A stretch of DNA of 47,754 bases, from the IMG/VR virus record IMGVR_UViG_2778261224_000004. One strand, written 5' to 3'. Position numbers and translations under genes: made by a program. Below, one piece after another: positions 22,031 to 35,764 of this stretch; positions within the stretch are counted from its first letter, which is position 1, and each line of letters begins with the position of its first letter. This DNA comes from a virus (lineage: Duplodnaviria; Heunggongvirae; Uroviricota; Caudoviricetes). Under the pieces are notes generated by a model. The model did not search any database. It had not been told where the DNA came from and saw only the letters and a list, made by a program, of their open reading frames with translations.

Positions 22031-22587
22031 TTTTTAACCGCCATAACACAACAGGTTAAAGAAAACTGTTTAACTTATTGATACTAAAAGAGAAAAATGA
22101 CGATCTTTTTACTCATAAAAAATCACACAAACCAGCATAATTATCTGATTTTATTAAGTTTTTATAAGTAAAAAGGATCTTGCGATGGTGTTTTGGTTAA
22201 AAGATTGGATGTATTTGCATGATTTATAACGATTTTTATCAGAACAACATTACATTGGTTAAAGATCTGCGCGTATCTTGATGATCTAAAAGAAAATTTT
22301 CTACTTTCTTTTTACCAGCACAAATACAGCAAAAAATCACGTTTTCCCGATATTTTTCAATGAGATGAGTAAATTTCTTTTACCGCAACTTTTAACCTAA
22401 CTTTTTTCACGTTTAGCTAGCCGAACATCGGGGTTCGAATGACCCGCATCCAACGCTTTTGGCCAGAAGGACCCAATTCTGCCGGACGATGAAACGATGC
22501 TCGTGCTCCCCCACAGACAGCCAGCGAGCGACGCTACAGAACACAGTGAATACACTCTGCATAACAACACCATCAACCACACGATGA
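22031..22587. other. 557-bp AT-rich non-coding gap inside the late gene block (candidate cos/packaging or regulatory region)
   Basis: No convincing ORF; AT-rich with several GATC sites. Confidence 0.3.
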
Positions 22588-23307
22588 TTAACGAGAGAAG
22601 GTCTTAGAAAGAATGTCATCAATCGCCTTTGTGACTTCATCAGCAAACGCATCCTCACCAGCACGCAGCGCCACGCCATGCCAATCAAGACGCTGCGAAT
22701 AGTTAGGTTGCTGGATAAACGTAAGGATCAACGTAGGACGCCGCCCAACGCGCTGCCAGACGCCTGGTTGAAGCGGGTTACTTGTACCAGGTCGAACAAC
22801 AAAAAACTCCGTAGGCTTGCCCTGACGGCGATTTTGATGCGCATCTCGCTGAACTCTTAGGCCAGATAAGACCTGCTGTAATTGCCCCCGCGAAATATTC
22901 CCGTATTTGTCCAGCTTTGCGCCGGGACCAGGAGCAAGCTGCCAGCCGTTAGGCAAATATCCACCAGCCCTTAGCGCCCCTTCTGAGCGTTTGTACTGTC
23001 GTTGGCCACCTTCGATTTGCGGAGTCAACGTTACAGGGGCTGGCGTTCCTCCCCATTCACGAGCATACACAATGGCTGTAGGATCACTCTTCTTTGCGGC
23101 CAAAACGTAAGTAGAGTTCTGAATCCACGGCGTGGGCCTGTCAAATACCCGATTAATTTCATTCTTAATCGCAGCCTGAGAAGCCTTTGCCGTTCTGGTT
23201 GCCGCAAGCGCCATTGCGAACGGCAATTCGCGTTCTTCAAGGCGCTGGAGTTGTCGTTGAATATCCTGAGAAGAAAAATCCATCTTTATCTCAATTCTGT
23301 CAGCCAC
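22588..23307 (-). CDS. Hypothetical protein
   Basis: 239-aa ORF between ParB-methyltransferase fusion and the AT-rich gap. Confidence 0.45.
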   Translation of the reverse strand: MADRIEIKMDFSSQDIQRQLQRLEERELPFAMALAATRTAKASQAAIKNEINRVFDRPTPWIQNSTYVLAAKKSDPTAIVYAREWGGTPAPVTLTPQIEGGQRQYKRSEGALRAGGYLPNGWQLAPGPGAKLDKYGNISRGQLQQVLSGLRVQRDAHQNRRQGKPTEFFVVRPGTSNPLQPGVWQRVGRRPTLILTFIQQPNYSQRLDWHGVALRAGEDAFADEVTKAIDDILSKTFSR

Positions 23308-23323
23308 CAGCGCCTCCTACACA

Positions 23324-24703
23324 CTACTTAATCAACGGCCGGAAAGCCGCCAGCACATCATCAGATCGTCCGATTGTTGAACCACCAGGCAACGGCAACT
23401 CAAACTCAAAACGAACAGCTTTCTCCAGACTCGCCCAACTAAGGGAATCATCGTTAATAACGTGCAAATACCAGCTCTTACAGTTGAATATTGACCGCTT
23501 AATCCTGAAACCATGTACACGACACAACTGCTTCACTTCATCATCAGAGTGAAACTTCTGGTAAAACCAGTGCCCCTTCCGGTACAACGCGGTAAAACCG
23601 TTATGATCAATAAAATAAAGCCGGCTTTTGGAACTCGCAGCTTGTGTTTGCTTCAGGACTGTTTCCAGCTCTCCACGGCTACGGCCAGAAAAGAATATTG
23701 ACCCACCAGCTTTACACAAGCCTTTCAGAACCGTCAGAACGGACCATTCAGCCTCGACACTATCGACCGAGTTCAAAACGCTATCGCAAATCACGTAGTC
23801 GTAACGCCCTCGCGTTTTTAAGTCGTCCACCAGCGTATCAATCATCCGGTTTGTTGCGGTCCTATCCAGAGTGTTTCCAGCGCCCTTACGGCGGAAAAGC
23901 TCGAGATCATGCAGGTTATATCCCTTTGCCCTGAGCATTCGCGCGTAGTCTCCCTGCCCCGAACCAAAATCAATTCCTCTTGGCGTCTTGGCAACGATCG
24001 GGAGGATCAACGACTCATACAGATTTGATTTCAGGCTGCCACCATTACGCAACCGCATAAGCTGCGCATACGTCTGGATGTATGTTGTTTTCTCCAGATG
24101 AGAATACTCAAATACACCATAAGTTTTATTCAGATAACTTTGGTATTTTTCCTTCTCAACATCAGGGATCACAAACACCGTTAGCGGTGTGCGCGTCATT
24201 TTCGCTGCTAATGCATACTGAGCACAGTGAATAACCTCACCAGACTGAGTAGCAACACAACCACCCCACGGACCATACTTGATAACCAGTTCCGCTATGT
24301 TCTTTCGAACATATGCCATTTTCGCGCGCATATTGCCTGAGATCTGGCTTGCCGATACCTGAACAAAACCATGCTTATCTTCCAGACCGGACACCCTGCA
24401 ACGCTCATCTCCGCTATCAAAATCCGTTCCGTTATGCAGTTGGTTAAACCGTACTTCGTCGTATACCGTCGTTTCACAGGGCAACACATACACCGCAGCA
24501 CGCGTTATTCCCAACTTACGTAGCGCCTTCGTCCTTTGGTGTCCCGCCACCAGCAAATCGCCGCGCACTATCAATGGCTTCACAAGCCCCAGCTCCCTGA
24601 CGCTTTCCGCCAGCCTCGCAAGATCATCCTCACCGATAAAACGCGGGTTATATTCCGCGCCGCGTAGGTGCGTTATGTCGTAATTGAGGTGAAGCATCAG
24701 CAC
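23324..24703 (-). CDS. ParB-like N-terminal domain fused to a class I SAM-dependent methyltransferase domain
   Basis: 459-aa ORF; N-terminal ParB-like ..LVAGHQRTKAL..; C-terminal Rossmann methyltransferase motif I GIDFGSGQGDYA and motif II-like YDYVICDSVL; no DPPY/DPPW or PCQ motif seen. Confidence 0.65.
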   Translation of the reverse strand: MLMLHLNYDITHLRGAEYNPRFIGEDDLARLAESVRELGLVKPLIVRGDLLVAGHQRTKALRKLGITRAAVYVLPCETTVYDEVRFNQLHNGTDFDSGDERCRVSGLEDKHGFVQVSASQISGNMRAKMAYVRKNIAELVIKYGPWGGCVATQSGEVIHCAQYALAAKMTRTPLTVFVIPDVEKEKYQSYLNKTYGVFEYSHLEKTTYIQTYAQLMRLRNGGSLKSNLYESLILPIVAKTPRGIDFGSGQGDYARMLRAKGYNLHDLELFRRKGAGNTLDRTATNRMIDTLVDDLKTRGRYDYVICDSVLNSVDSVEAEWSVLTVLKGLCKAGGSIFFSGRSRGELETVLKQTQAASSKSRLYFIDHNGFTALYRKGHWFYQKFHSDDEVKQLCRVHGFRIKRSIFNCKSWYLHVINDDSLSWASLEKAVRFEFELPLPGGSTIGRSDDVLAAFRPLIK

Positions 24704-25320
24704 ACCTCCCCAGCCAGCAATGCGGATACAAATCCGATATAGCTGCCATTATCATCAACATAACGAGACACCGCGCAGTCAAAACGATCCGCTTCCTCAT
24801 CCGTTGCCGGGATTTTATGACCTCCAAATGACAGGTACTGAACTTTTACGCCTGATTTGGCCTCATCCTTCTCAAATGGGATATCCATACCCTCTGTGTC
24901 ATCGTAGACCGCCGCACTCAATAAGTTATCCAGTTCGCGCTGAGTAAAACCAATTGAGTCCAGAGAAAAATCATCGGCCGCAAGATCTGCAAGCTCCGCG
25001 CTTAACAACTCTTCATCCCAACCAGCATTCAGCGGAATACGGTTGTCGGCCAGACGATATGCCTTCTTCTGATTCTCCGTTAGCCCAGCCAGAACAATGC
25101 AGGGAACATCATCCATCCCCAACTGAGTGGCCGCAGCAATTCGACCATGACCAGCAATTACAACGTTGTTCTCGTCTATCAGGATCGGATTAGTCCATCC
25201 GTACTCCTGTATGCTGGCAACAATCTGATCTACCTGCTCCACGGAGTGTGTGCGAGCGTTCTTTTCATAACCAATCAACACAGAAAGTGGTAAAGAAACC
25301 ACATTAAGTTGTTTTGTCAT
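24697..25320 (-). CDS. ParB-like nuclease domain (ParB/Srx fold) protein
   Basis: 207-aa ORF; ..YEKNARTHSVEQVDQIVASIQEYGWTNPILIDE..VIAGHGRIAAA.. Confidence 0.7.
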   Translation of the reverse strand: MTKQLNVVSLPLSVLIGYEKNARTHSVEQVDQIVASIQEYGWTNPILIDENNVVIAGHGRIAAATQLGMDDVPCIVLAGLTENQKKAYRLADNRIPLNAGWDEELLSAELADLAADDFSLDSIGFTQRELDNLLSAAVYDDTEGMDIPFEKDEAKSGVKVQYLSFGGHKIPATDEEADRFDCAVSRYVDDNGSYIGFVSALLAGEVC

Positions 25321-25554
25321 GCCGTTTATCCGCTAAAATCCCCTCGCTTGTGCAAGCAAGTGGGCCTCGGTTTGTATCCACGGCACCCTGTGGGTATGAA
25401 TGACTGTCGTCAGGTCGCAACTGACGGCGGTCGCCCACCTTCCAGTAATAAAAAAGCCACCAGCATTAACTCCACAATGAGCTGGAGTTAATGAGGCAGC
25501 TTTGGTTTGCGCATTATCGCAGCCCCTGATAAGCACAAGAGCTGCTGTAATGCG

Positions 25555-25965
25555 TTACTCTGGTATCAAACAGATGTGGCCGTTATTTACCTCAATACGG
25601 GAATATTCCGGCTTACCATCCACGATTCCGGTAATGACAAGTTCGCCATCAGGCGACCATTCTTCTTTGTCGTCTTCAAGTACCGCGCCTTCTGGCAAAT
25701 CAATACAGGCAAAAACAGGGCAGCCAGGATGACGTTTATCCTCCATCGCAATCAGCATCGACTCACCGAACCACTCTGTGGTAGCACGGCCATCAGCCGC
25801 CTGATAGTGAATCAGATACTGGTTTTCGCCATTTGCATACTGAGCACGGGCTTTAACTTCTCCCCATTCGTCACTGATACGCATTGTTACCAGTTGGGAT
25901 AATTCAAACTTAAACGGAACAGCATCTGCACCAATGGCAATCGGTTTATCTTCTTTCTTTTCCAT
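25555..25965 (-). CDS. Hypothetical protein (start moved to Met preceded by AGGTGA RBS)
   Basis: ORF track gives 25555..26034; the upstream part overlaps an intrinsic terminator, and the Met at 25965 has an RBS 5 nt upstream. Confidence 0.45.
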   Translation of the reverse strand: MEKKEDKPIAIGADAVPFKFELSQLVTMRISDEWGEVKARAQYANGENQYLIHYQAADGRATTEWFGESMLIAMEDKRHPGCPVFACIDLPEGAVLEDDKEEWSPDGELVITGIVDGKPEYSRIEVNNGHICLIPE

Positions 25966-25975
25966 AACATCACCT

Positions 25976-26006
25976 GAAAATAAAAAGCCCCGCGACACCG
26001 CGAGGC
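25976..26006 (-). terminator. Rho-independent terminator (minus strand)
   Basis: 8-bp GC-rich stem (one mismatch) with 4-nt loop followed by TTTTTATTTT on the minus strand. Confidence 0.55.
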
Positions 26007-26014
26007 TGTAAGAG

Positions 26015-26167
26015 TTACTTTCGATAGAAATCAAGGCGCAATTGCTCCCGCTTACGCCGAAAAGCTCTCTGCGCCACTAAGATGCGCCACAGGACACCAG
26101 CGATAACCACCAGCGAGATACAAAAACACACGGCCACAACCATCAGAAAAATGCCAACACCATTCAT
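26015..26167 (-). CDS. Small hydrophobic (membrane) protein, 50 aa
   Basis: Hand translation MNGVGIFLMVVAVCFCISLVVIAGVLWRILVAQRAFRRKREQLRLDFYRK; ATGA start/stop overlap with upstream ORF; not in ORF track (<60 aa). Confidence 0.4.
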   Translation of the reverse strand: MNGVGIFLMVVAVCFCISLVVIAGVLWRILVAQRAFRRKREQLRLDFYRK

Positions 26168-26421
26168 GAAACTATCCATTCTTCAATGAATATCTCCAGT
26201 AATATCAAGAGATACGCCGTTCCCAGCGCGGTTCCTACCGATATAGCTAAGACAAACCTCAAAGATAACGAGGTGTCCTTCGCTTTTCTCCAGACGTAAG
26301 CGCCAGCCAGAAATACCAACAAATCTCTTATTGGAAGCGGAAACCAGAACAAATCACTCGGCAAGTCCACGGTTATATCCTTCCATTCATTTTTATCGGG
26401 TGACCAGATAGCCTTAGGCAA
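26164..26421 (-). CDS. Hypothetical membrane protein
   Basis: 85-aa ORF with hydrophobic C-terminal half; start uncertain (overlaps previous ORF by 49 nt). Confidence 0.4.
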   Translation of the reverse strand: MPKAIWSPDKNEWKDITVDLPSDLFWFPLPIRDLLVFLAGAYVWRKAKDTSLSLRFVLAISVGTALGTAYLLILLEIFIEEWIVS

Positions 26422-26828
26422 TTGAGCTGTAAAGCTCCTGTATCAACTAAATGATCAACTAACATGATTAGAGATTCATATTCAGCCAGATAGCTAACCT
26501 GACGCATTCGACCGCCGTTGTTCTCCAGAATGTCAGCCACCTTTGCAGCCAACTCGCTTAGACAGAAGAACTTATTCCCATATATCGTTTTATACTCGCG
26601 CTTCTGGCATTCTTCGGCTTGCGGCTGGTTATCGAGAGCTATCAGCGACCGATGGCTATCAATGAAGTCCACAATCTCATTCAGGCATTCTTTAGCTGCC
26701 TCATCGTGACTTTTTCCGTATGCTTCACGGAGGACTTTCATCCTCATCATTGCTCCGTCACATATAGTCGAAAGCGCGTAAAGCACATCACTAACCGCCA
26801 TTTCTTTTTTGGTGCTTGTCGAAGGCAT
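26373..26828 (-). CDS. Hypothetical protein
   Basis: 151-aa ORF in accessory block. Confidence 0.45.
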   Translation of the reverse strand: MPSTSTKKEMAVSDVLYALSTICDGAMMRMKVLREAYGKSHDEAAKECLNEIVDFIDSHRSLIALDNQPQAEECQKREYKTIYGNKFFCLSELAAKVADILENNGGRMRQVSYLAEYESLIMLVDHLVDTGALQLNCLRLSGHPIKMNGRI

Positions 26829-26902
26829 CCCATGTTCTCCTTTGTCTGGATGTAAAAAAGCCCCGGCAATTGCCGAGGCTCGTTGTTCGTTATCGTTACG
26901 GT

Positions 26903-27103
26903 TTAATGCTCGCGTCGTCCGGCGACAACTTCGGATTTGTATTTCAGGTCGCCCAGCAAGAATTGCAGTTTAAGCATCTTTGCCGCCGTGTAGTTCCCTG
27001 ATTCCACAACCTCTTTCATGAGGTCATAAACGGCCGCTACATCATCAGCCAGGAACTCTTTGCGTTGCTGCTCAGTCGCACGTTTGAAGGAAATACGCAT
27101 CAC
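26903..27103 (-). CDS. Hypothetical protein
   Basis: 66-aa ORF, ATGA overlap with upstream gene. Confidence 0.4.
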   Translation of the reverse strand: MMRISFKRATEQQRKEFLADDVAAVYDLMKEVVESGNYTAAKMLKLQFLLGDLKYKSEVVAGRREH

Positions 27104-27369
27104 TCATCATCTCCTGCCGCACATACAACCTCACAAAAAAAATCAGCAGAATGTTTCTCCTTGAACGAATGACGCTCAAAACCGCACTCAATATCAGGCG
27201 CAAAAACATCCACCACATACGGTCTTTCAGAATGTTTGTTTTCCCAACGATAAACCGTAGTGACGTTGAAATGTTTTAACGCTTCACGGAACTCAACGCT
27301 GCCCGTCAGGTTTTTTGAGGTCAGGTATTGCAGGAGGTTTTTTACTACTTCACGGTCTTGTACTTTCAT
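27100..27369 (-). CDS. Hypothetical protein, first gene after repeat copy A
   Basis: 89-aa ORF; GGAG RBS 8 nt upstream of ATG inside the conserved 112-bp cassette. Confidence 0.45.
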   Translation of the reverse strand: MKVQDREVVKNLLQYLTSKNLTGSVEFREALKHFNVTTVYRWENKHSERPYVVDVFAPDIECGFERHSFKEKHSADFFCEVVCAAGDDE

Positions 27370-27478
27370 CGGGTTATCTCCGGTTTAACCAGGGCGGGTA
27401 TCGCTCGGTTTCGGGTATAACCATAGGAAATTTTTTCCCATCTGTAAAGCACTTTTTATATAAATCTATAATTATATA
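27367..27478 (-). promoter_or_regulatory. Conserved ~112-bp promoter/leader cassette, copy A
   Basis: More than 95 percent identical to 34245..34355 and 43156..43267; contains AT-rich motif, TTTACA-N17-TATGGT promoter-like hexamers, leader and RBS. Confidence 0.55.
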
Positions 27479-27481
27479 ATT

Positions 27482-28069
27482 CTATGACACTTGCCAGAGA
27501 GCATCATGCAACTGGATACCTCCGTTGCACTGGTTGCCCCAGCCATGCCAGCCATCAGGTAAATCACCGCGAGCAAACAGCTCAATACGAGGAACATCGC
27601 CTAACAGCTTTACCAGCTTGTCACGGACCACATCAGGCTTCCGAGAATGCTCCAGACGAGGCGATGTAAACGACTGAATGATCCCCGCATCAAGACGTGT
27701 CGGTAGTTTGCCTTTCACTGCAAACAAGCAATCTTCACTGTTTGCACGAGTCATATGCCCCATCCCCATCACCAGCTTATCTGGTTGTCGGCTACCACAT
27801 TTGTTCCATGTGAAGCCCTTCATGGTCATCAGCCTGAATCCCCATGCTTTCACCACCAGCAACGCTTCTTCTGGCTGAGTCGGAACCCACCACATGGCCA
27901 ACAAACACGATTCAGGATTAGCAAGCTGCCAGACAGGAATACGAGCAATATCCTCAGCTTTCATCGTTGGATACTTAAAACCAGCGCCACGATTCCCATC
28001 CTTACACTTGTCTTTGTATTCCCAGGGGGGATCTGCATAAATCAGATTAAACAATGCAATTGCCTCCAT
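27482..28069 (-). CDS. MT-A70-family N6-adenine DNA methyltransferase
   Basis: 195-aa ORF with catalytic motif YADPPWEY near the N-terminus. Confidence 0.7.
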   Translation of the reverse strand: MEAIALFNLIYADPPWEYKDKCKDGNRGAGFKYPTMKAEDIARIPVWQLANPESCLLAMWWVPTQPEEALLVVKAWGFRLMTMKGFTWNKCGSRQPDKLVMGMGHMTRANSEDCLFAVKGKLPTRLDAGIIQSFTSPRLEHSRKPDVVRDKLVKLLGDVPRIELFARGDLPDGWHGWGNQCNGGIQLHDALWQVS

Positions 28070-28376
28070 GTTAGTTGTGTCTCCGGCGCTTATCTCCGGC
28101 AGTCATAACGCTGGCCAGCTCTACAGCAAACACAACGAAAAGGGCGCTAACCAGACTGATTAATGCCCTTGCCTGTTGTGTGCCGGATATCGCCCGACAA
28201 CGCTGTTTTGGTAACACGGCTACAGTTCCGTGCCGCTCCAGCTTTTACCCCTTTGCGGATAACAGGCCCTGCCTGTAACTTAGCCCCACGTTCGCCCGAA
28301 ATGCGCACCAGGCACGCATAAAGATGAGCACGAAGAAGTAACTCCACCGCGCTTATCTTTATGTGTGAGAGTGAAT

Positions 28377-28452
28377 TGGTGGCCCCTACCGGATTTGAAC
28401 CGATGACCGTGCGATTATGAGTCGCCTGCTCTAACCACTGAGCTAAGGGGCC
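28377..28452 (-). tRNA. tRNA with CAT anticodon (Met or lysidine-type Ile2), encoded CCA end
   Basis: Hand-folded cloverleaf GGCCCCTTAGCTCAGTGGTTAGAGCAGGCGACTCATAATCGCACGGTCATCGGTTCAAATCCGGTAGGGGCCACCA: 7-bp acceptor stem, D arm, anticodon loop CTCATAA, T loop TTCAAAT. Confidence 0.85.
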
Positions 28453-28461
28453 ATATTTGAT

Positions 28462-28545
28462 TTGTTTGTCTGGTGTGGCGCCGCGCACGAAAATCCCAGC
28501 CAATAAATTCAGGATTTTTGGGCGCGGCGGCATATCAGACAAACA
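28462..28545. repeat. 84-bp imperfect palindrome (nested inverted repeats) next to the tRNA 5' end
   Basis: Inner arms 28477-28496 and 28512-28530 (about 19 bp, GC-rich), outer arms 28462-28472 and 28536-28545. Confidence 0.5.
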
Positions 28546-28621
28546 TGGTTGATGCGTGCGCCCATGAGAAAAGCGCATAGAATGTTGTAACTATATATTT
28601 ATATAATTATAGAAATATATA

Positions 28622-28831
28622 TTACTTTGGACAGTTGATTTCCCATGCCATGTTATGAGCCAGAATATCTTTCTTTGTCTGGCGGTCCATAACATCGATG
28701 TCGTGATCAGTCAGGTAGATGGGCTTTACCCAATCACAGGCGGTATCAACCACCACCGGGACGCTTCCACGACTCCCGCAGCTCGCGATCAACATCGTCA
28801 TCAGCCATATGGTTAACACTCTGCTGTACAT
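28622..28831 (-). CDS. Rz1-like outer-membrane lipoprotein (o-spanin candidate)
   Basis: 69-aa ORF with signal peptide and lipobox LIASC, in the +1 frame overlapping the 3' end of the Rz-like gene. Confidence 0.5.
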   Translation of the reverse strand: MYSRVLTIWLMTMLIASCGSRGSVPVVVDTACDWVKPIYLTDHDIDVMDRQTKKDILAHNMAWEINCPK

Positions 28832-29024
28832 TCCCCACCTCTTTTGTCACTTCTATACGCCGCTCCGCAGTGGCTTTTACGGCGGCTGCATTCTCATTAA
28901 TGCGCTGCTTTTCAGCTTCATCTTCGGCCTTTTCTCGCCCTTTCATACGACCAAAACCAAACGCGCCGAATGCAACCAATATAATTGTGCCAATAAATGA
29001 CAACACGGCCTTCAAACCAGTCAT
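28746..29024 (-). CDS. Rz-like inner-membrane spanin (i-spanin candidate)
   Basis: 92-aa ORF with N-terminal TM segment and charged periplasmic part, ATGA overlap with endolysin stop. Confidence 0.5.
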   Translation of the reverse strand: MTGLKAVLSFIGTIILVAFGAFGFGRMKGREKAEDEAEKQRINENAAAVKATAERRIEVTKEVGNVQQSVNHMADDDVDRELRESWKRPGGG

Positions 29025-29563
29025 ACCACCACTCGCTCTTTCATCCAGCCGTAGACAAACGACTCATTAGCCTCGCGCTTCTCCGCCAACTCCAGATAGC
29101 GTTCGCCCTGCGTACAGTTCAGCGACGTCAGCATCACCCGTTCGCCGTCTTTTCCCCGATTCCCAAGATAAGCACGTAGCGCATTAATGGTACGTGGACC
29201 GATTCGTCCGTCTGCATCCAAATCGGGATACAGCTTCCCGCGCAGGTTGAACACATTCAGCCAGCGTTGAAGCATTTTTGACGCCACTATTGGCCCCATG
29301 TTCACCCCCGTGTCACACAGCTCTGCGGCAATATCAGAGGATAATGCGGCCACCTGATCAAAGCGTGGTCCGTACCAGTAATCAGCCTCAAGGATTTCCA
29401 GTGCCTGTTCGCGGGTTAAATCGCGCATATCGCCACGGTATCCATGAGCACGGGCAGAGTTCTGAGTAATGCCCCACTTTGTTGGGCCTCCCTTGTCGTC
29501 AGGGTGATCCACATAGCCGCCCTCTTTTCCAAGAACGCTGTTAAAAATCTCATCTTTGGTCAT
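29021..29563 (-). CDS. Endolysin, GH108 family with peptidoglycan-binding domain
   Basis: 180-aa ORF; N-terminal ..GKEGGYVDHPDDKGGPTKWGIT.. typical of GH108 lysozymes. Confidence 0.75.
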   Translation of the reverse strand: MTKDEIFNSVLGKEGGYVDHPDDKGGPTKWGITQNSARAHGYRGDMRDLTREQALEILEADYWYGPRFDQVAALSSDIAAELCDTGVNMGPIVASKMLQRWLNVFNLRGKLYPDLDADGRIGPRTINALRAYLGNRGKDGERVMLTSLNCTQGERYLELAEKREANESFVYGWMKERVVV

Positions 29564-29882
29564 GATTAAACCCTAATGCGTCAACTATCCGCGCCAGATT
29601 GCCCCTGAAATACAGAACAACGATGCAGATAATCAGATTTCCAATAACCACCAGCCAGTGGGATTCTTGATAAAGACCGAACACATAACGGAAGGGAACA
29701 TTGGCGTATACAATGACGTAGATATAAGCCAGAAAGGAAACAAATGGACGATGCCTGGAGTCTTTCCGTCGATAAAGCATCAGCGCCATTACTATTACTG
29801 TGCAAAGCACCGCATTAATCAGTGCTGACGGGTCACTGCTTACCATTTGAACCCCCTCCACGTAATCGGGAAAGCATTCCAA
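29550..29882 (-). CDS. Holin/antiholin-like membrane protein (start uncertain)
   Basis: 110-aa ORF with hydrophobic helices; internal Met at MVSSDPSAL is an alternative start. Confidence 0.45.
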   Translation of the reverse strand: MECFPDYVEGVQMVSSDPSALINAVLCTVIVMALMLYRRKDSRHRPFVSFLAYIYVIVYANVPFRYVFGLYQESHWLVVIGNLIICIVVLYFRGNLARIVDALGFNHDQR

Positions 29883-30228
29883 AGATGCTACCGAGATCCT
29901 GGCTGTTTACGAACGTGAGGATTTTAATGGTCAATGCAGCCACAATAACCGCACCAAGCGCATCCAGAGGACGATCGTTGTAGCTGGTCCATTTGGCAAG
30001 AAATGAGCCAACTAACGGCGCTCCAATCACTCCAACAATGAACGATGTAAAGAAATAGCCAATCAGCTTGAGACGGCTAATATTCACCGCTGTAGCAACA
30101 TAGAAAACAGCGCCAGCAAATGCCCCGAATACAACGCCGTAATCAATACCAGTTGCAATACCAAAAACGCTGGCACCCATCAGGCCACCAGCAGCAACGG
30201 CCGTACCGGAAATTGGTTCTGCTGACAT
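29833..30228 (-). CDS. Holin-like membrane protein
   Basis: 131-aa ORF, Gly/Ala-rich TM segments, first gene of lysis block. Confidence 0.5.
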   Translation of the reverse strand: MSAEPISGTAVAAGGLMGASVFGIATGIDYGVVFGAFAGAVFYVATAVNISRLKLIGYFFTSFIVGVIGAPLVGSFLAKWTSYNDRPLDALGAVIVAALTIKILTFVNSQDLGSIFGMLSRLRGGGSNGKQ

Positions 30229-30241
30229 TGAAATCCTCGTT

Positions 30242-30272
30242 AAAAAAAAAGCCCCGCCGAAAAAGGCAGGGC
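30242..30272 (-). terminator. Rho-independent terminator (minus strand) just upstream of the lysis cassette
   Basis: Minus strand GCCCTGCC-TTTTTC-GGCGGGGC stem-loop (8 bp incl. one G-U) followed by nine T. Confidence 0.7.
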
Positions 30273-30418
30273 TTCATAAAGCAACAAATTACGCGGTAAT
30301 CGCTTAACGCAGTTTTACTACGTTAAATGAAACACTACACCCAGTTACCACCTAAAACAAGGTTTCCCCATAAAAAAACCTTCATATCGTGGTTAATCGA
30401 TCAATAAAAAAGCAATGT

Positions 30419-30610
30419 TCAACTTTTTACCAACTGAACATCCCGACCAGGACTTCCATAATATTCGCCGATATTCCACTGCTTAAGTTGAGTAATCTTC
30501 TCCAACTTAACTCCCACAGAATCCAATTTCTGCCATGTTTTCGGTTGTATGTGCCTCATTACCCGCTCTGAATATCTAAATACTGCTCGTAGCCTCGCTA
30601 AATTGCTCAC
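30419..30610 (-). CDS. Hypothetical protein
   Basis: 63-aa ORF, ATGA overlap with upstream gene. Confidence 0.35.
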   Translation of the reverse strand: MSNLARLRAVFRYSERVMRHIQPKTWQKLDSVGVKLEKITQLKQWNIGEYYGSPGRDVQLVKS

Positions 30611-31368
30611 TTGTCGCCTCCTTTACGAATCTGTTCCGCCCACTCCTCAAGAGATTTCTCCGCATATTCACCGGACAGGCCATCAATCGGGTGCGGTTCA
30701 TTAGCCAACTCTTCTTTCGCTGACAAAATCATGCGTGTAACGTCGAAAACTTCACGCAAAGACTTATTGATAAATCCGTGATTGAACGCAGCAGCAAGAC
30801 GGCTTGCGGTGTAGTTAATCCCCTCGTTGCGTGCCTCCGCACGTATTTCAGCCAGGAAAGCATCGGTGGCTGGAATGGGCTTTTGTGGTGATATAGCAAT
30901 GCGAATTGTCTCAAGGTCTGGAGCTGTTTCCGCTGTTGGCACCTTGATATAACCCGTCTGCACCCCATTCATGATGAACCTGCGACGGTCATCACATATC
31001 GCCTTAAGCCCTGCATTCTCCGCCGCCAGCGCCGCACGACTGGCCTCCAGTTCAGCAATGCGTTTGCTTTGTGCTTCCCGTTCATTCAGCAACGCCTGCA
31101 CTACTTCTGGGTTGAAAGCTGCGATATAACGAGCGTTGTTCTCTGCGTTTTTCTGTCCGTCAAAGCCGGTCCATTTGATAACGTCTTCACATCGTTTATC
31201 ACCGGGTGTATGCACCGCATATGTACCAGTACCCGACGAAATAAATGCGACCCATTCGCCCTGTGTTGCCTGTTTTGCTATCTCACGTAGTGCCTGATAG
31301 TTAATTGCTGTGCTGTTAGTCATTCCAGGCCTCCAGCTCGTTCTGAATCTCCTCGTCAACCTCGTCAT
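30607..31368 (-). CDS. Hypothetical protein (possibly Ead/Ea22-like; start may be at Met 31323)
   Basis: 253-aa ORF with central coiled-coil-like segment; family assignment by recollection only. Confidence 0.4.
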   Translation of the reverse strand: MTRLTRRFRTSWRPGMTNSTAINYQALREIAKQATQGEWVAFISSGTGTYAVHTPGDKRCEDVIKWTGFDGQKNAENNARYIAAFNPEVVQALLNEREAQSKRIAELEASRAALAAENAGLKAICDDRRRFIMNGVQTGYIKVPTAETAPDLETIRIAISPQKPIPATDAFLAEIRAEARNEGINYTASRLAAAFNHGFINKSLREVFDVTRMILSAKEELANEPHPIDGLSGEYAEKSLEEWAEQIRKGGDK

Positions 31369-31660
31369 TGGTGGCGTCTTCGTTCAGATGGTCGCGCGCC
31401 TCTTTGAGATACTGTTCACGGCGTTCGTGGTACCAGGCTGAGAACTCCGGCGACCATCCTCGATTAGCCCCCTGAAAATCTACCATCGCATTATCCTCGG
31501 CCATACGCTCGACCATGCAATCCGCGGTGTTCAGTGCAACCTCACGGATGTACCCCCGCAGGTCGCGCTTACGCCAATACGGGCTATATTTTGAGTCGCA
31601 GCGGCCTTTAAATTCGACGGTCCAGCGACGGATGCAGCGTGCGTTAAGTGATTTGCTCAT
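31316..31660 (-). CDS. Hypothetical protein
   Basis: 114-aa ORF with acidic C-terminus. Confidence 0.4.
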   Translation of the reverse strand: MSKSLNARCIRRWTVEFKGRCDSKYSPYWRKRDLRGYIREVALNTADCMVERMAEDNAMVDFQGANRGWSPEFSAWYHERREQYLKEARDHLNEDATNDEVDEEIQNELEAWND

Positions 31661-31662
31661 AG

Positions 31663-32274
31663 TTATGCTTCCTTAATACGCTTAAACTCAATTACCCATA
31701 CCCACGGGTTAGATAGCCAGTTCTCTTGCCCGTAAATACCGCGCCAGATATCACCAAAGCCAACGCGATAAACAGCTTCCGGCGGTGTAATCTTGTACGT
31801 CACCGGAGATGCGCCTTCTGCTTTAGCATCTGCCTCGCTCATGTCATGTAGCCGTTCCACACGCACGTCGGTTATTTCCAACAGAATACGGCTGGCCCAA
31901 CGTGGCATGTGAATTGATGGGGTCCAACCCTCAGCTGGCTTGCTACTATCTGAGTAATCAGCCTTGTAATCACACAGTTCAGAAGCCAGAGAGACACCAT
32001 CTTTGATTTCCTGAATGACATCGTTATCCAGCCAAAAAGCGTTGAATGTTTCACGTACCCATATGCGATCACCAACGTTACCGAACGGGCATAAACCATG
32101 TTCCGGTGCATCCATAACGTGGGTATAGACACCATTGCGTTTCTTTGTCGGTTTACGGATAACCAGGCAGTTATCGGCCCTGACATTTTTTACAGGTCGG
32201 CGAGTCTGCGTCTTCCTTCCTTCGAGGATGGCCCTAACCATATCGTCATTAAAAACAACACCACGTTCTTTCAT
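31663..32274 (-). CDS. Hypothetical protein (possible ASCH/PUA-like fold)
   Basis: 203-aa ORF; N-terminal ..MVRAILEGRKTQTRRP.. pattern. Confidence 0.4.
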   Translation of the reverse strand: MKERGVVFNDDMVRAILEGRKTQTRRPVKNVRADNCLVIRKPTKKRNGVYTHVMDAPEHGLCPFGNVGDRIWVRETFNAFWLDNDVIQEIKDGVSLASELCDYKADYSDSSKPAEGWTPSIHMPRWASRILLEITDVRVERLHDMSEADAKAEGASPVTYKITPPEAVYRVGFGDIWRGIYGQENWLSNPWVWVIEFKRIKEA

Positions 32275-32525
32275 TTAGAAGCCACCTTGTTCAATTTCCG
32301 GCGACAAGACACGCAATCATCAGGACTCTCAAAAGTGTCTGGCTCACGGTAATCACCAAAATACATCCAACGGCCGCAAATGCTGGTTACTTCACCTTCA
32401 TTAAAATAATGATGTTTATTCGCCTTCATTGGCCTGACCCATCCGGCATTTTTCTTGCTCACTTCAACTCCTCCCGACGACGTTCCTGAAGCTCTAGCAT
32501 TGCGGCTCGGAAATCCTGCCACCAT
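32271..32525 (-). CDS. Hypothetical Cys-containing small protein
   Basis: 84-aa ORF; likely shorter from an internal Met. Confidence 0.35.
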   Translation of the reverse strand: MVAGFPSRNARASGTSSGGVEVSKKNAGWVRPMKANKHHYFNEGEVTSICGRWMYFGDYREPDTFESPDDCVSCRRKLNKVASK

Positions 32526-32824
32526 TCCTCATCGGCTACTGGGGTGTTCCGCTCCAGCACCTTGTCCGCATCGGCGATCAGGTTTGCCAGACTCTTGTCT
32601 GAAATCTTCGTTACCGGAGTCGTTGGTTGCTCAACCTGCCCGATAGGTTTTATCGTGCTCAAAAGGAGGCGACGGCGGGAAAGTGGTGCCCCACAACGAC
32701 GGCCATCTTCCTTGCGATATGTTTCTTTCGGACCAACACACCAGGTTGTCGGCGTCTCGCGCAACTTCACTTTTTTCTCACCATCATTGGTAATGATTAT
32801 TCCGGTATGGGTTTTGATGCTCAT
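32459..32824 (-). CDS. Hypothetical protein
   Basis: 121-aa ORF. Confidence 0.4.
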   Translation of the reverse strand: MSIKTHTGIIITNDGEKKVKLRETPTTWCVGPKETYRKEDGRRCGAPLSRRRLLLSTIKPIGQVEQPTTPVTKISDKSLANLIADADKVLERNTPVADEEWWQDFRAAMLELQERRREELK

Positions 32825-33123
32825 GCCACAGCCCCTCTCAACGGCTTAACTTTGGCTAATAAGGTGTTAAACAACATGGAGTTAGGATTCATGCCAAATG
32901 GCAATTCCGGTTTAGCGGAGTAGTACAGGCAACCATTTATTTTCCTGGTTGTTATCTGTCCTTCGGCAACCATGCTTCTCAGTCTGCAACGCATAGAGTT
33001 CTGCGACACACCAATGTGCTCCGCGATTACGTCCACTTTTGAACATGGGTGATCGGTCAGGAAATTAATCACATCTTGGGGGTTAATAATTTTGCGTTTC
33101 ATTGTCGAGGCGTCCTTATACAT
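32821..33123 (-). CDS. Hypothetical protein, possible winged-helix DNA-binding regulator
   Basis: 100-aa ORF; own AT-rich motif copy immediately upstream (33125-33150). Confidence 0.4.
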   Translation of the reverse strand: MYKDASTMKRKIINPQDVINFLTDHPCSKVDVIAEHIGVSQNSMRCRLRSMVAEGQITTRKINGCLYYSAKPELPFGMNPNSMLFNTLLAKVKPLRGAVA

Positions 33124-33179
33124 TTATATAAATATATAATTCTATATATGGCGGGAGACGTCCCGCCGTAGGCTTACTG

Positions 33180-34247
33180 TCAGGCTTTCAATAGCGATTC
33201 TTTTAGATATCGGGCATCAGCCAGGGCGTTTGGAGTAATCTTGCGAACCCATGCATTACGGGTTGGACTCCACTTAAAGGCGCGTGATTTAAGCAGCGAA
33301 CGAATGTTTGCCTCTGGTTTGCCAGGGAAATAAAACAGGATGCGGTTATCCTCTGGATCTATCTCCATAGAAAAGCCGTCGTATTCTTCGCGCTGTGCTC
33401 CTGTTACAGACTTGACCGATTCAAGCTCCTTAATACGGCTCTGTAGTCGTTTGATTTCGGCGTTATTGTTGCTCAGTGCGTATGAAGGGAATCCGATGCG
33501 CCCACAGAAATCTCCGGCCAGTAACTCTTTGGCTTCGCTTTCTGTAAACCTGAGATCGATTAATGCAGAAAGCTGCTGTATTTGGTCTTTTTTGTATTTG
33601 CGAATGGCCTTATTTGCGGCCTTCATTTTGACGTGTGACTTCATGCAGCCTTGCAGCTTACGAAGCAACTTAAATAGCGCATCAGGATCATCAGACGAAA
33701 TTCCATTACGACCAACACCTGCGGCTTTGCTCTCGTAGTGTGATGCTTTACTTTCGCATTCAACAAACGCTTTTCTGAATAACGCATCAGCTTTAGACAA
33801 ACGGCGGCGATGGCCTTTCGCGCTATAATGGTCAACTAAAATCGGCTGGCCTAACGGGATCACATCCAACAGGTCATGCGCTCGCTTATGCGCTACCGCA
33901 CCTTCTTTTCTGGCTTTTTCTGCACGAGCAATATATCGGGCAAGACGCGCGTTCTGGCGTTCCTGATAGGTGTTTACGTAATCATCTCCGCGCTGCTGCT
34001 GTTCAAGCCATGCTTTGCGCAGATCTTCTGTTACGTCCACCAGCTCCGCAGGGATACAACCAGTTTGGGCTTCATAAGAGTAACCATCCTCATAGATACG
34101 CCCATCGTCTTCAACAAAGAAAAAGGTTTCGTGCTCATCGCTTTTGACCATACGACCATTAACATGGCGTAATAGGTAGCCAGTATCAGTGCTTAACAGG
34201 CTGTTAGGGTTGTTGATCCAGTCAGAAATAATTACTTGTTTATTCAT
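33180..34247 (-). CDS. Hypothetical protein (DUF3560-like by recollection), first gene after repeat copy B
   Basis: ORF track gives 33180..34301; start moved to Met 34247, which aligns with the start codons of the other two cassette copies and has a GGAG RBS. Confidence 0.45.
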   Translation of the reverse strand: MNKQVIISDWINNPNSLLSTDTGYLLRHVNGRMVKSDEHETFFFVEDDGRIYEDGYSYEAQTGCIPAELVDVTEDLRKAWLEQQQRGDDYVNTYQERQNARLARYIARAEKARKEGAVAHKRAHDLLDVIPLGQPILVDHYSAKGHRRRLSKADALFRKAFVECESKASHYESKAAGVGRNGISSDDPDALFKLLRKLQGCMKSHVKMKAANKAIRKYKKDQIQQLSALIDLRFTESEAKELLAGDFCGRIGFPSYALSNNNAEIKRLQSRIKELESVKSVTGAQREEYDGFSMEIDPEDNRILFYFPGKPEANIRSLLKSRAFKWSPTRNAWVRKITPNALADARYLKESLLKA

Positions 34248-34355
34248 CAGATTTCTCCGGTTTAACCAGGGCGGGTATCGCTCGGTTTCGGGCATAACCA
34301 TAGGAAATTTTTTCCCACCTGTAAAGCACTTTTTATATAAATCTATAATTATATA
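34245..34355 (-). promoter_or_regulatory. Conserved ~112-bp promoter/leader cassette, copy B (immediately downstream of Q-like gene)
   Basis: Near-identical to copies A and C. Confidence 0.55.
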
Positions 34356-34416
34356 TTTATAGATTTTCGATGTTCCCGATGTCTACACACCATCAAAACA
34401 GCTCAAAATGACACTT

Positions 34417-34794
34417 TTACTCTCTTCGCTTTTTCAAATAGTCGACAACATACGCCCTGGCTTTTGCCAGCTTCCGGCGATACTGTCTGAGGCTAAGAGA
34501 AAGGGCGTGGGCTTTATCAATATGCGGTGCATTTATGTCGAGGCCCCGAATCTCCCACGCCCCGTATTCAATTCGGACAACCAGCGCCGCAGTCTCATCA
34601 ACTACCGTGAGGGCCGTCACCGCTCCCTCTATACTGGTTTCCAGTGAGTCATTTGGTGCGCCGCCCCCTCCGGTAAACTGGCAGCGCGTAACCATCATCA
34701 TTTCTAACATCGACGCGAAACCGCTACGGGCGTTGCAGCCATTGCGCACCCACAGCGCCCATAGCTCAAACAAGCTATCCAGATCGCGTCTCAC
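34417..34794 (-). CDS. Putative late antiterminator, QuuD-like (Phage_antitermQ family)
   Basis: 125-aa ORF; N-terminus MRRDLDSLFELWALWVRNG resembles the QuuD-type start MRDIQMVLERWGAW as recalled; followed by promoter cassette B. Confidence 0.45.
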   Translation of the reverse strand: MRRDLDSLFELWALWVRNGCNARSGFASMLEMMMVTRCQFTGGGGAPNDSLETSIEGAVTALTVVDETAALVVRIEYGAWEIRGLDINAPHIDKAHALSLSLRQYRRKLAKARAYVVDYLKKRRE

Positions 34795-34797
34795 TGT

Positions 34798-35130
34798 TCA
34801 GATCTCCCGTATCGTGACGGGATAAAGCGCCTCTACCTGCTTTTTCTTCATGATGTAGACGTCTGTTCGCACACCTTTAGTGTCGACACAATCAATCGTC
34901 CCATCGTCATAAAACACCATGAAATCAAGTTTATAAACGACACCACCTGGCAGATGAAAAGGCACCTGCATAAGAAACGTCACAACGCGGCCAGCTTTTC
35001 TCAGTAGCTTCAGTTCGCAGTAGTAATCAGCCTCTTTTTTGCTATCAAAAGCGATATCATCGACAACCGTTTTTTTATTGCCGTATTTGCTTTTCCTTGT
35101 CGCTGGTTTGCGAAAGCCGGTATATCTCAT
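34798..35130 (-). CDS. DUF1064-like lambdoid nin-region protein
   Basis: 110-aa ORF, MRYTGFRK..KYGNKKT..DSKKEADYY pattern. Confidence 0.5.
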   Translation of the reverse strand: MRYTGFRKPATRKSKYGNKKTVVDDIAFDSKKEADYYCELKLLRKAGRVVTFLMQVPFHLPGGVVYKLDFMVFYDDGTIDCVDTKGVRTDVYIMKKKQVEALYPVTIREI

Positions 35131-35531: not shown

Positions 35532-35764
35532 CAGCGCCCCTTACCATTGATAAAGAGGTTGAACTCGTTGATTAACTGGACATACATGCTTCTGGCCGCG
35601 TAGTTCTTTGCCAGCTCTTTACGGGATGAGATCCCGCAAAACTCACGCAGAATCACAGAGGCCTCAGAACTGTTTGAAACGTTCTTCCCTGTTTTACTGG
35701 TCAGAAAGCGCCAGAATTGGGGATTCTGGCAATGCATCGCAGCACCGCGAACATAACTACTCAT
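35531..35764 (-). CDS. Hypothetical protein
   Basis: 77-aa ORF. Confidence 0.35.
   Translation of the reverse strand: MSSYVRGAAMHCQNPQFWRFLTSKTGKNVSNSSEASVILREFCGISSRKELAKNYAARSMYVQLINEFNLFINGKGR

What the first reader, a model, noticed from the sequence alone, without database searches (positions are those of the whole stretch)
28462..28545. 84-bp nested palindrome abutting the tRNA gene
Immediately 5' of the tRNA there is a long imperfect palindrome with GC-rich inner arms (~19 bp each) and AT-rich outer arms. It is not followed by a T tract on either strand, so it is not a simple terminator. Candidates: a recombination or resolution site, an origin-like element, a protein-binding site controlling tRNA/methylase expression, or a processing structure in the tRNA precursor.
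Basis: seen in the sequence. Interest (0 to 1): 0.5.

Follow-up and report, generated by a model that had tools for sequence, protein, structure and literature searches.

The report
Conserved strand-biased hairpin in a phage-plasmid
The palindrome is real and conserved in every known relative of this E. coli/Salmonella phage-plasmid, but it belongs to a ~160-bp backbone module rather than to the tRNA gene, and its mismatch pattern shows that the strand opposite to the genes is the one kept foldable; its function is still unproven.

Summary
Observation confirmed. Arms 28463-28496 and 28512-28545 pair at 29 of 34 positions around a 15-nt loop. It is the most stable 100-nt fold in the window on the + strand. 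It has no T tract on either strand.

The window is a ~47-kb myovirus-type phage-plasmid (IncFII RepA, ParA). The same family occurs in 70 complete E. coli genomes, including ATCC 25922.

The palindrome is single-copy and family-restricted. It forms a conserved island (28464-28621) with a 34-nt spacer and an AT-rich 8-bp-repeat array. The flanks are non-homologous between clades:
- The lysis genes differ.
- The tRNA sits in a variable cargo slot: absent in the Salmonella plasmids, ~325 nt away in a third clade.

Eight sequence variants give 8 compensatory pairs (0/500 shuffles reach the score). All 22 mismatch states are G·T, G·G, G·A or A·A on the + strand, so they are A·C or pyrimidine·pyrimidine on the gene strand.

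Not supported: terminator, Xer site (a good one lies at ~44.5 kb), cos (probably ~22.44 kb), tRNA-leader element, repeat family.

Best reading (about 0.3): a cis-acting DNA site that works as a + strand hairpin, like a nick site or single-strand initiation site. RNA-level and duplex protein-binding readings remain open.

The parts
28463..28545 (+). 83-bp quasi-palindrome (34-nt arms, 15-nt loop). The stem is supported by covariation, and the + strand is the strand on which all mismatches are benign.
28546..28579 (+). 34-nt spacer. Its length is kept (34/34/33 nt) while its sequence diverges. It can form a small hairpin whose loop carries the conserved GCGCC(C/A). In the E. coli type, GTGCGCCC lies at 28556-28563. 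The spacer is polymorphic within the E. coli type.
28580..28591 (.). GAATGTTGTAAC, invariant in all three clades.
28588..28621 (.). AT-rich array of 8-bp repeats (about 4.2 copies; core TATAATTATA). It is identical between the E. coli and Salmonella clades. It is one of eight such arrays in the element.
28377..28452 (-). tRNA (anticodon CAT; tRNA-Ile in the RefSeq annotation). It is a neighbour in a variable cargo slot (28306-28463), not part of the conserved module.
28622..28831 (-). Probable o-spanin lipoprotein ORF (LIASC lipobox). Its stop codon abuts the AT array and marks the right edge of the island. The lysis genes are not homologous between clades.

Best explanation
The palindrome is a structure-selected stem-loop. 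It forms one half of a ~160-bp conserved backbone island (stem-loop, 34-nt spacer, invariant GAATGTTGTAAC, AT-rich 8-bp-repeat array). The island sits at the junction between the lysis cassette and a variable cargo slot that, in the E. coli lineage, holds the tRNA.

Shown:
- It is conserved, single-copy and independent of the tRNA.
- The whole 34-bp stem co-varies.
- Every mismatch is of the most stable class on the + strand and of the least stable class on the - strand, which is the gene and mRNA strand.

Inferred: the element works as a DNA hairpin extruded from the + strand when that strand is single-stranded or melted, with the adjacent AT array as the easily opened or protein-bound flank. 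That would make it a cis-acting site of the nick-site kind (origin of transfer, or double-strand origin of rolling-circle replication) or of the single-strand-initiation kind. It would not be a terminator, a tRNA-leader structure or a recombination site.

Which enzyme acts on it is not known.
For: Reality and rank of the fold.

Core of the family: 70 E. coli genomes, about 61 E. coli-type and 3 Salmonella plasmids in the plasmid collection, and 3 phages grown on Yersinia. 66 of 70 E. coli copies are identical. The adjacent 115 bp differ in 48 of 70.

Island boundaries: homology between clades runs only over 28464-28621, at 76-80%. This is about the same as the coding DNA (75.8%), and both flanks are non-homologous.

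Covariation: 8 distinct sequences give 8 pairs changed on both sides and 89.7% of cells paired. 0/500 shuffles reach the covariation score, and the slid registers give 0-2 such pairs.

Strand asymmetry: 22 of 22 distinct mismatch states are G.T/T.G (9), G.G (5), G.A/A.G (7) or A.A (1) on the + strand. None is A.C or pyrimidine.pyrimidine.
- The + strand fold is 3-13 kcal/mol more stable in every clade.
- The bias runs against the background composition, in which the + strand is C-rich.

Architecture: on the + strand the inverted repeat is followed by a conserved GCGCC(C/A) in a small hairpin loop and then by an AT-rich block. In the E. coli type the 8-mer GTGCGCCC equals the core of the MOBQ oriT consensus NWACCNNTAAGTGCGCCCTYNN.

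Against a + strand RNA: in two clades a hairpin followed by a T run lies immediately upstream of the palindrome on the + strand (sequences).
Against: - No process that exposes the + strand is identified.
  - GC skew, Chi orientation and the IncFII repA with a DnaA box at 45703 all suggest that plasmid forks move so that the - strand, not the + strand, is the lagging-strand template.
  - No relaxase, HUH nuclease or rolling-circle Rep was found. PLSDB's MOB-suite typing gives 'non-mobilizable', and Pfam, PHROGs and NCBIfam found nothing.
- The match to the MOBQ core is weak evidence.
  - It is an 8-mer seen about as often as chance in the window (2 found, 0.98 expected).
  - The 12-mer consensus is met only at 9 of 12 positions, which is chance level.
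  - The Salmonella clades have a 2-nt different register.
  - Some E. coli plasmids mutate the CCC.
- The inverted repeat is much longer, and further from the putative nick, than in RSF1010-type oriTs (from my memory of those sites).
- Compensatory changes in a DNA palindrome can also arise without selection, by template switching. The clustered GGCGG-to-GTCACC change in the salamae plasmid looks like such an event.
Confidence: 0.3

Rival explanations
1. RNA element of the late (- strand) transcript. It would be a non-terminating stem-loop downstream of the last lysis gene that acts as an RNase III-type processing site or a 3'-exonuclease barrier. It would separate the lysis mRNA from the cargo, methylase and packaging genes. 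The conserved mismatches would be functional internal loops.
For: - All neighbouring genes are on the - strand.
- A strong terminator immediately upstream of the holin gene (30275->30248) suggests a lambda-like late unit read by antitermination, so the hairpin would be transcribed.
- The stem co-varies.
- Mismatches at pairs 11 and 16 recur across the E. coli and Salmonella clades.
- The layout of lower stem, loop-rich middle and long upper stem resembles T7 RNase III sites (from memory).
Against: - On the - strand all 22 mismatch states are A.C, C.C, C.U or U.U, and none is G.U. An RNA selected for pairing on this strand should show G.U.
- The - strand fold is weaker in every clade and only about 11th in the window.
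- The island was kept while the upstream lysis cassette was replaced, which is unexpected for a 3' appendage of that cassette.
Confidence: 0.2
2. Duplex DNA site for a dimeric or multimeric protein, perhaps cooperating with the protein that binds the adjacent AT array. Selection would act only against hairpin formation on the exposed - strand (the lagging-strand template and the mRNA).
For: - Outer (pairs 2-6, 8-10) and top (pairs 26-31) blocks are conserved symmetrically.
- The distance to the AT array is fixed.
- The AT arrays form a family of eight sites, at the parA promoter, between parA and the 82-aa gene, and upstream of three duplicated promoters. They are therefore likely protein-binding sites.
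- Avoiding a - strand hairpin would also produce the observed asymmetry.
Against: - 83 bp is very long for an operator.
- Eight compensatory pairs are not expected for half-site recognition unless the protein co-evolved.
- No candidate binding protein was identified. The 82-aa protein matches no Pfam or NCBIfam family and only a PHROG of unknown function; the 124-aa protein matches no Pfam or NCBIfam family.
Confidence: 0.15
3. Stem-loop of a + strand (antisense) RNA expressed in the plasmid state. It might damp lysis-gene expression or act as an sRNA.
For: - The + strand shows wobble and purine-purine mismatches only, and has the best fold in the window, ahead of the known + strand RNAs C4 and isrK.
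- -10-like hexamers lie 3-8 nt left of the hairpin in several clades (my reading of the sequences).
Against: - There is no conserved promoter. The left flank is different DNA in each clade.
- The promoter scan found nothing in the E. coli type.
- No terminator follows.
- In two clades a terminator-like hairpin followed by a T run sits just upstream on the + strand.
- A start site next to the hairpin would leave out the co-varying lower stem.
Confidence: 0.12
4. Processing or control structure of the tRNA precursor, or control of the tRNA and methylase.
For: In the E. coli type it lies 10 nt upstream of the tRNA 5' end.
Against: - Salmonella plasmids keep the island and have no tRNA.
- In the third clade the tRNA is ~325 nt away, with unrelated DNA between.
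- The asymmetry disfavours the tRNA strand.
Confidence: 0.03
5. Recombination site: Xer/cer-like resolution site, att site, telomere-resolution site or integron attC.
For: Palindromic shape. The plasmid needs multimer resolution.
Against: - A near-consensus Xer site, GGTGCCGATAA-CGTCCA-TTATGTTAAAT, lies at 44466-44493.
- No integrase, resolvase or protelomerase is annotated, and the records are circular.
- There are no partial copies in E. coli chromosomes or in GTDB representative genomes.
- I saw no match to the attC core sites as I remember them.
Confidence: 0.04
6. Functionless relic of an inverted duplication, kept palindromic by template-switch correction.
For: Clustered arm-perfecting changes occur in the salamae plasmid.
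Against: - 66 of 70 copies are identical while the flanks vary.
- It is retained between swapped modules in three clades.
- The mismatch bias is one-sided.
Confidence: 0.08

Closest known systems
MOBQ-type origins of transfer (RSF1010/R1162 family) and, more generally, HUH-nuclease nick sites (oriT, or the double-strand origin of rolling-circle replicons)
   Same: - An inverted repeat lies 5' of a short conserved GC-rich core on one strand, with an AT-rich flank.
- The hairpin matters on one strand only, which would explain the one-sided mismatch pattern.
- The E. coli type carries GTGCGCCC, the core of the published consensus.
   Different: - The arms are 34 bp. In RSF1010-type oriTs they are about 10 bp (from memory).
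- The core lies about 10 nt from the repeat. In RSF1010-type oriTs the gap is about 3 nt (from memory).
- The TAA and the trailing T of the consensus are missing (9 of 12).
- The other clades have another register.
- No relaxase or Rep is encoded.
- There is no sequence homology to any other plasmid.
Phage RNase III processing hairpins (T7 R sites) and the lambda sib retroregulator
   Same: A long imperfect intergenic stem-loop without a U tract, inside a long co-directional late operon.
   Different: The strand that would be the mRNA carries the destabilising mismatches. It is a single site rather than one per gene junction.
Dispersed centromere or operator sites of phage-plasmids (N15 sopC-like sites; type Ib parC repeat arrays)
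   Same: The adjacent AT array belongs to a family of short-repeat arrays. These are clustered around a small ParA gene and scattered at promoters elsewhere in the phage genome.
   Different: This concerns the AT array, not the palindrome. No binding protein is identified. The palindrome itself is unique in the element.
Single-strand initiation / primosome assembly sites of plasmids and phiX174/G4-type phages
   Same: A strand-specific DNA hairpin of 70-100 nt that acts in cis.
   Different: The strand favoured here is not the inferred lagging-strand template of the IncFII replicon. I recognised no known sequence signature.

Membership tests
Intrinsic (Rho-independent) terminator | GC-rich stem with a short loop, followed at once by a U/T tract | tested here: not met
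   The loop is 15 nt and no T tract follows on either strand. Canonical terminators exist elsewhere in the element, at 30275->30248, 26881->26858 and 26007->25986.
tRNA leader / precursor processing element | Constant association with, and spacing from, the tRNA gene | tested here: not met
   Salmonella plasmids have no tRNA. In L074 the tRNA is ~325 nt away.
Xer (dif/cer) site | An 11-bp XerC arm, a 6-8 bp centre and an 11-bp XerD arm close to the consensus | tested here: not met
   The scan found no such site in the island. The best site (2 mismatches) lies at 44466-44493.
Repetitive palindromic elements (REP/ERIC/MITE) | Many dispersed copies in a genome | tested here: not met
   One copy per replicon. 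There are none in E. coli chromosomes except one full-length copy in one record. None was found in enterobacterial representative genomes.
Protelomerase target (telRL of N15-like linear plasmids) | Palindrome next to a protelomerase gene on a linear replicon | tested here: not met
   No protelomerase is annotated in the whole plasmid, and almost all records are circular.
Lambda-type cos site | Lies at the virion DNA ends, next to the small terminase gene | tested here: not met
   Two of the three phage records start at the same base, inside the non-coding gap upstream of the ParB/Srx, TerS and TerL genes. This corresponds to window ~22444, 6 kb away. That this point is cos is an inference.
MOBQ oriT | Consensus NWACCNNTAAGTGCGCCCTYNN 3' of an inverted repeat | tested here: inconclusive
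   The 8-mer core is exact in the E. coli type, but only 9 of 12 positions of TAAGTGCGCCCT match, which is chance level. The Salmonella and L074 clades read AAGTGGGCGCC(C/A). The consensus is from PMC3832669.
MOBQ oriT | Cognate relaxase, in cis or in trans, and nicking at the core | not testable with these tools
   No relaxase is encoded; PLSDB's MOB-suite typing gives 'non-mobilizable'. Action in trans and nicking need experiments.
Theta replication origin | Initiator gene or iterons, DnaA box, AT-rich unwinding element | tested here: not met
   Only the AT-rich block is present. There is no DnaA box or IHF consensus in the island. An IncFII repA with a perfect DnaA box and an AT-rich stretch lies at ~45.7 kb. 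There is no skew shift at 28.5 kb.
RNase III processing hairpin | At least ~20 bp of dsRNA with internal loops in an intergenic part of a polycistronic transcript; cleavage by RNase III | not testable with these tools
   The shape is compatible, but the mismatch classes argue against the - strand. Cleavage was not testable.
Any Rfam family | Score at or above the family's gathering threshold | tested here: not met
   Only sub-threshold miRNA-precursor hits, which reflect the generic hairpin shape. The gathering-threshold search of the whole window found nothing here.

The most novel reading that the evidence does not exclude
The island is an orphan nick site, either an oriT or a rolling-circle initiation site. 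It would be used in single-stranded hairpin form on the strand opposite to the genes. A widespread E. coli/Salmonella phage-plasmid could then be mobilised by co-resident conjugative or mobilisable plasmids, or could start lytic rolling-circle replication, without encoding a recognisable relaxase or Rep.
Probability: 0.15. Interest if true: 0.7.

Novelty: new variant of a known kind. Interest (0 to 1): 0.42.

Why it matters
This phage-plasmid family is common in clinical and reference E. coli; 70 of 5,426 complete genomes carry it, including ATCC 25922. It is almost unstudied, and its cis-acting sites are not annotated.

A backbone site that is kept while the modules on both sides are exchanged is probably needed for propagation. 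The same holds for a site whose fold is protected on one strand only.

If the site is a nick or transfer origin, it would link phage-plasmids to conjugative mobilisation networks. If it is an RNA element, it would be a new regulator at the junction of the lysis and packaging genes.

Either way, the one-sided mismatch test used here is a cheap way to decide which strand of a palindrome is functional.

Tried and rejected
- **Miscounted pattern.** The scan used a loop that was one N too long and found nothing. The corrected scan found only the known family.
- **AT-array pattern.** The scan added only unrelated AT-rich hits, L016-L018.
- **Representative genomes.** The scan gave 35 hits in unrelated taxa and none in Enterobacterales. 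They look like chance matches.
- **Weak chromosomal matches.** 150 matches to 28564-28606 fall between yneE and uxaB and are chance.
- **MT-A70 homologues.** Those in Klebsiella and Ewingella plasmids, and in ~70 IMG/VR prophages at about 78% identity, lie in unrelated contexts without the island.
- **Literature.**
  - pSLy3 is a 114-kb SSU5-type element, not this family.
  - I found no paper on the Yersinia phages or on this family.
- **Promoters.**
  - No sigma-70 promoter was found in the E. coli-type island.
  - A -35-like GTTACA has a 19-nt spacer to (C/T)ATGGG, which is too long, and that hexamer is polymorphic.
  - A GYGACA-18-GATAAT match inside the Salmonella palindrome is absent from the E. 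coli type and is within chance expectation.
- **Chi-like motif.** CTGGTGTGG in the left arm is not Chi and is on the opposite strand to the real Chi sites.
- **GC skew.** No feature at 28.5 kb.
- **Proteins.**
  - Searches of the 82-aa, 124-aa, DUF3560 and early proteins gave no DNA-binding, relaxase or Rep assignment.
  - RSF1010 (NC_001740.1) is not in the plasmid collection.

Full report
**1. The observation**

The inverted repeat is real. Its arms (28463-28496 and 28512-28545) are 34 nt long and 85% complementary, with 15 nt between them. A tRNA with anticodon CAT lies at 28377-28452 on the - strand. The RefSeq annotation of identical plasmids calls it tRNA-Ile. The palindrome therefore lies 10 nt upstream of the tRNA 5' end.

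- As RNA it folds at -54.5 kcal/mol on the + strand (z -8.1) and -40.3 on the - strand (z -5.4).
- It is the only long GC-rich inverted repeat in the window.
- In a sliding 100-nt scan it is the best fold of the whole window on the + strand (z -6.1). It ranks ahead of the Rfam-confirmed C4 and isrK RNAs, and only about 11th on the - strand.
- No T tract follows on either strand.
- Rfam gives only sub-threshold miRNA-precursor hits, which reflect the generic hairpin shape.

**2. What the window is**

The window is a ~47.5-kb phage-plasmid.

- It has P2-like tail genes and lambda-like head and terminase genes.
- It has an XRE-family repressor, a small ParA and an IncFII-type RepA.
- It has a RelE/ParE toxin-antitoxin pair and a P1-like C4/isrK immunity region.

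Nearly identical plasmids occur in 70 of 5,426 complete E. coli genomes, including ATCC 25922. Three phages propagated on Yersinia pestis are 96-99% identical.

Around the finding, all genes are on the - strand. In order they are: two holins, the endolysin, the spanins (the o-spanin ORF ends at 28622), the AT-rich block, the palindrome, the tRNA, a second imperfect hairpin (28313-28367), a 48-aa membrane-peptide ORF, an MT-A70 methylase, ParB/Srx-methylase genes, and the terminase.

A strong intrinsic terminator lies immediately upstream of the holin gene (30275->30248). This suggests a lambda-like late unit read by antitermination.

**3. Comparative anatomy**

The palindrome is single-copy and restricted to this family.

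Salmonella plasmids (serovar Concord, subsp. salamae, serovar Weltevreden), one metagenome contig (L061) and a third clade from IMG/VR (L074) carry diverged copies.

Between the E. coli and Salmonella types, homology covers only two stretches:
- 27342-28305 (the methylase and its upstream region), at 75.8%.
- An island at 28464-28621, at 76-80%.

The 158 bp in between (the second hairpin plus the tRNA) are replaced by unrelated DNA. The lysis genes to the right of 28621 are not homologous.

The Salmonella plasmids have no tRNA. L074 has one, but ~325 nt from the palindrome, with other DNA between. The tRNA is therefore cargo in a variable slot, and its position next to the palindrome in the E. 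coli type is a derived state.

The island has four parts:
- The palindrome.
- A spacer whose length is kept (34/34/33 nt) while its sequence diverges.
- The invariant 12-mer GAATGTTGTAAC.
- An AT-rich array of 8-bp repeats, identical between the E. coli and Salmonella clades.

Within E. coli, 66 of 70 palindromes are identical. The next 115 bp vary in 48 of 70 records.

**4. Is the stem selected, and on which strand?**

With eight distinct sequences, 8 of 34 pairs change on both sides and 89.7% of cells are paired. None of 500 shuffles reaches the covariation score, and the slid registers give 0-2 such pairs. Pair 12 occurs as T-A, C-G and G-C.

All 22 distinct mismatch states are, on the + strand, G.T/T.G (9), G.G (5), G.A/A.G (7) or A.A (1). 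On the - strand they are therefore A.C, C.C, C.T or T.T. Two of the states, in L074 at pairs 32-33, may be an alignment-register artefact; that leaves 20 of 20.

By my arithmetic a two-sided sign test gives about 5e-7 if all states are independent. It stays below 1e-3 with a dozen independent events.

- G-containing mismatches are the most stable class, and C.C, A.C and C.T the least stable, in both DNA and RNA (established nearest-neighbour knowledge).
- The + strand fold is 3-13 kcal/mol more stable in every clade.
- The bias runs against the background composition, because the + strand is C-rich throughout.

Either the + strand hairpin is the selected form, or the - strand hairpin (in the mRNA and the inferred lagging-strand template) is selected against while the symmetry is kept for another reason.

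One caveat applies to the covariation. Template switching in quasi-palindromes can create concerted changes without selection, and the clustered change in the salamae plasmid looks like one.

**5. What it is not**

- **Not a terminator.** There is no T tract and the loop is 15 nt. The element uses canonical terminators elsewhere.
- **Not a tRNA-leader element.** See section 3.
- **Not the multimer-resolution site.** A Xer site with 2 mismatches to dif lies at 44466-44493.
- **Not an att or telomere site.**
  - No recombinase or protelomerase is annotated.
  - The records are circular.
  - There are no partial chromosomal copies.
- **Not cos.**
  - Two of the three phage records begin at the same base, inside the non-coding gap upstream of the ParB/Srx, TerS and TerL genes. 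This corresponds to window ~22444.
  - That point is flanked by a one-sided Chi cluster.
- **Not the plasmid origin.**
  - The IncFII repA, a perfect DnaA box and an AT-rich stretch lie at ~45.7 kb.
  - The island has no DnaA or IHF consensus and no skew change.

**6. The neighbouring AT array**

It is one of eight arrays with 8-bp period and core TATAATTATA:
- Two lie just upstream of parA.
- One lies between parA and an 82-aa gene.
- One lies in front of a MarR-like gene.
- Three lie upstream of duplicated promoter-plus-leader modules (TTTACA-17-TATGGT).
- One is in the island.

They are probably binding sites for a partition or regulatory protein, by analogy with type Ib centromere/operator arrays and the dispersed N15 centromeres (an analogy from memory). 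No protein family could be assigned to the candidates.

**7. Mechanism**

The reading that fits both the covariation and the one-sided mismatches is a cis-acting DNA site that functions as a hairpin on the + strand, with the AT array as a meltable or protein-bound flank.

On that strand the repeat is followed by a conserved GCGCC(C/A) that can sit in the loop of a small hairpin. In the E. coli type the 8-mer GTGCGCCC equals the core of the MOBQ oriT consensus. This is a lead, not a membership:
- The 12-mer matches only 9 of 12 positions, which is chance level.
- The other clades differ in register.
- The CCC is polymorphic in E. coli.
- No relaxase or Rep is encoded.
- The inferred plasmid fork direction exposes the - strand, not the + strand.

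I give this reading about 0.3. The rivals:
- An RNA hairpin of the late - strand transcript (0.2). This is the ordinary expectation, but the mismatch classes contradict it.
- A duplex protein site with selection against a - strand hairpin (0.15).
- A + strand antisense RNA (0.12). It lacks any conserved promoter, and terminator-like hairpins lie just upstream in two clades.
- A relic (0.08), a recombination site (0.04), a tRNA-linked function (0.03).

**8. Verdict**

This is a real, conserved and previously unannotated cis element of a common but unstudied phage-plasmid family. It is independent of the tRNA and has an unusually clear strand signature. Its function remains to be shown. Interest is moderate.

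Noticed in passing
window 20429-36636 (14 sites; 12 of them between 20429 and 30192): There are 14 exact Chi sites (GCTGGTGG), all on the - strand, against 1.15 expected (0/100 shuffles reach 14). They start next to the presumed cos site. They are oriented so that RecBCD entering at that end and moving to higher coordinates meets them. This looks like an anti-RecBCD Chi cluster at one genome end.
   Followed up: partly
window ~22430-22445 (non-coding gap 22031-22587): This is the probable cos site. Two of the three Yersinia phage records start at the same base (GGTCATTCGAACCCC..., the reverse complement of window 22444 downwards). The point lies in the gap upstream of the ParB/Srx, TerS and GpA-type TerL genes.
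   Followed up: partly
window 27456-27485, 28588-28621, 33117-33138, 34333-34361, 38088-38119, 38170-38189, 38877-38897, 43245-43268: A family of AT-rich arrays with 8-bp period (core TATAATTATA), all intergenic. Three lie around the parA / 82-aa gene operon. They are probably sites for a partition or regulatory protein.
   Followed up: partly
window ~27366-27485, ~34258-34361, ~43170-43268 (- strand): Three near-identical copies of a ~100-bp module. Each has an AT array, a TTTACA-17-TATGGT promoter-like site, a conserved leader (TATACCCGAAACCGAGCGATACCCGCCCTGGTTAAACCGGAGA) and a start codon. They stand in front of three different genes.
   Followed up: partly
window 44466-44493 (- strand): A near-consensus Xer (dif/cer-like) site, GGTGCCGATAA-CGTCCA-TTATGTTAAAT. 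It is the likely multimer-resolution site.
   Followed up: no
window 30248-30275 (- strand): A strong intrinsic terminator 10-20 nt upstream of the holin start, inside a 380-bp non-coding gap. The layout resembles lambda pR'-tR' and implies late antitermination. No Q-like gene was identified.
   Followed up: no
window 28071-28217 (- strand) and 28076-28150, 28183-28287: A 48-aa ORF with a transmembrane segment and a KRRRHN tail lies directly upstream of the MT-A70 gene. Its C-terminal part is conserved in all three clades. Two blocks here are 95-100% identical between the E. coli and Salmonella types, against 75% in the coding DNA. This might be a toxin-like peptide with overlapping regulatory RNA.
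   Followed up: partly
window 39559-39855 (-), 40227-40299 (+), 40324-40412 (+): Rfam matches above gathering score to ryfA, isrK and the C4 antisense RNA. The last two indicate a P1-like immI-type immunity region.
   Followed up: no
window 28313-28367: A second long imperfect inverted repeat (27-nt arms, 78% complementary) on the other side of the tRNA. On the + strand it is followed by CGCTTATCTTTATG. A shorter hairpin with the same CGCTTAT motif occurs in the other clades and scores as terminator-like on that strand.
   Followed up: no
window 45703 (DnaA box), 45764-45803 (AT-rich), repA 45853-46830 (-): An IncFII-family RepA with a perfect DnaA box and an AT-rich stretch just downstream. 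This is the probable oriR. Strongly structured regions at 46701-46890 on both strands may be a CopA/CopT-like control region.
   Followed up: no
L005 4015-4044; L021 4030-4001: In the Salmonella-type palindrome, the left arm and the loop together form a sigma-70-like GYGACA-18-GATAAT (9-10 of 12 matches) pointing towards the lysis genes. It is absent from the E. coli type and may be chance.
   Followed up: no
NZ_CP032086.1 (E. coli ATCC 25922, 94,204-bp record): One assembly holds two copies of the element in a record about twice the usual size. It may be a dimer or an assembly artefact. I did not check the orientation of the two copies.
   Followed up: no
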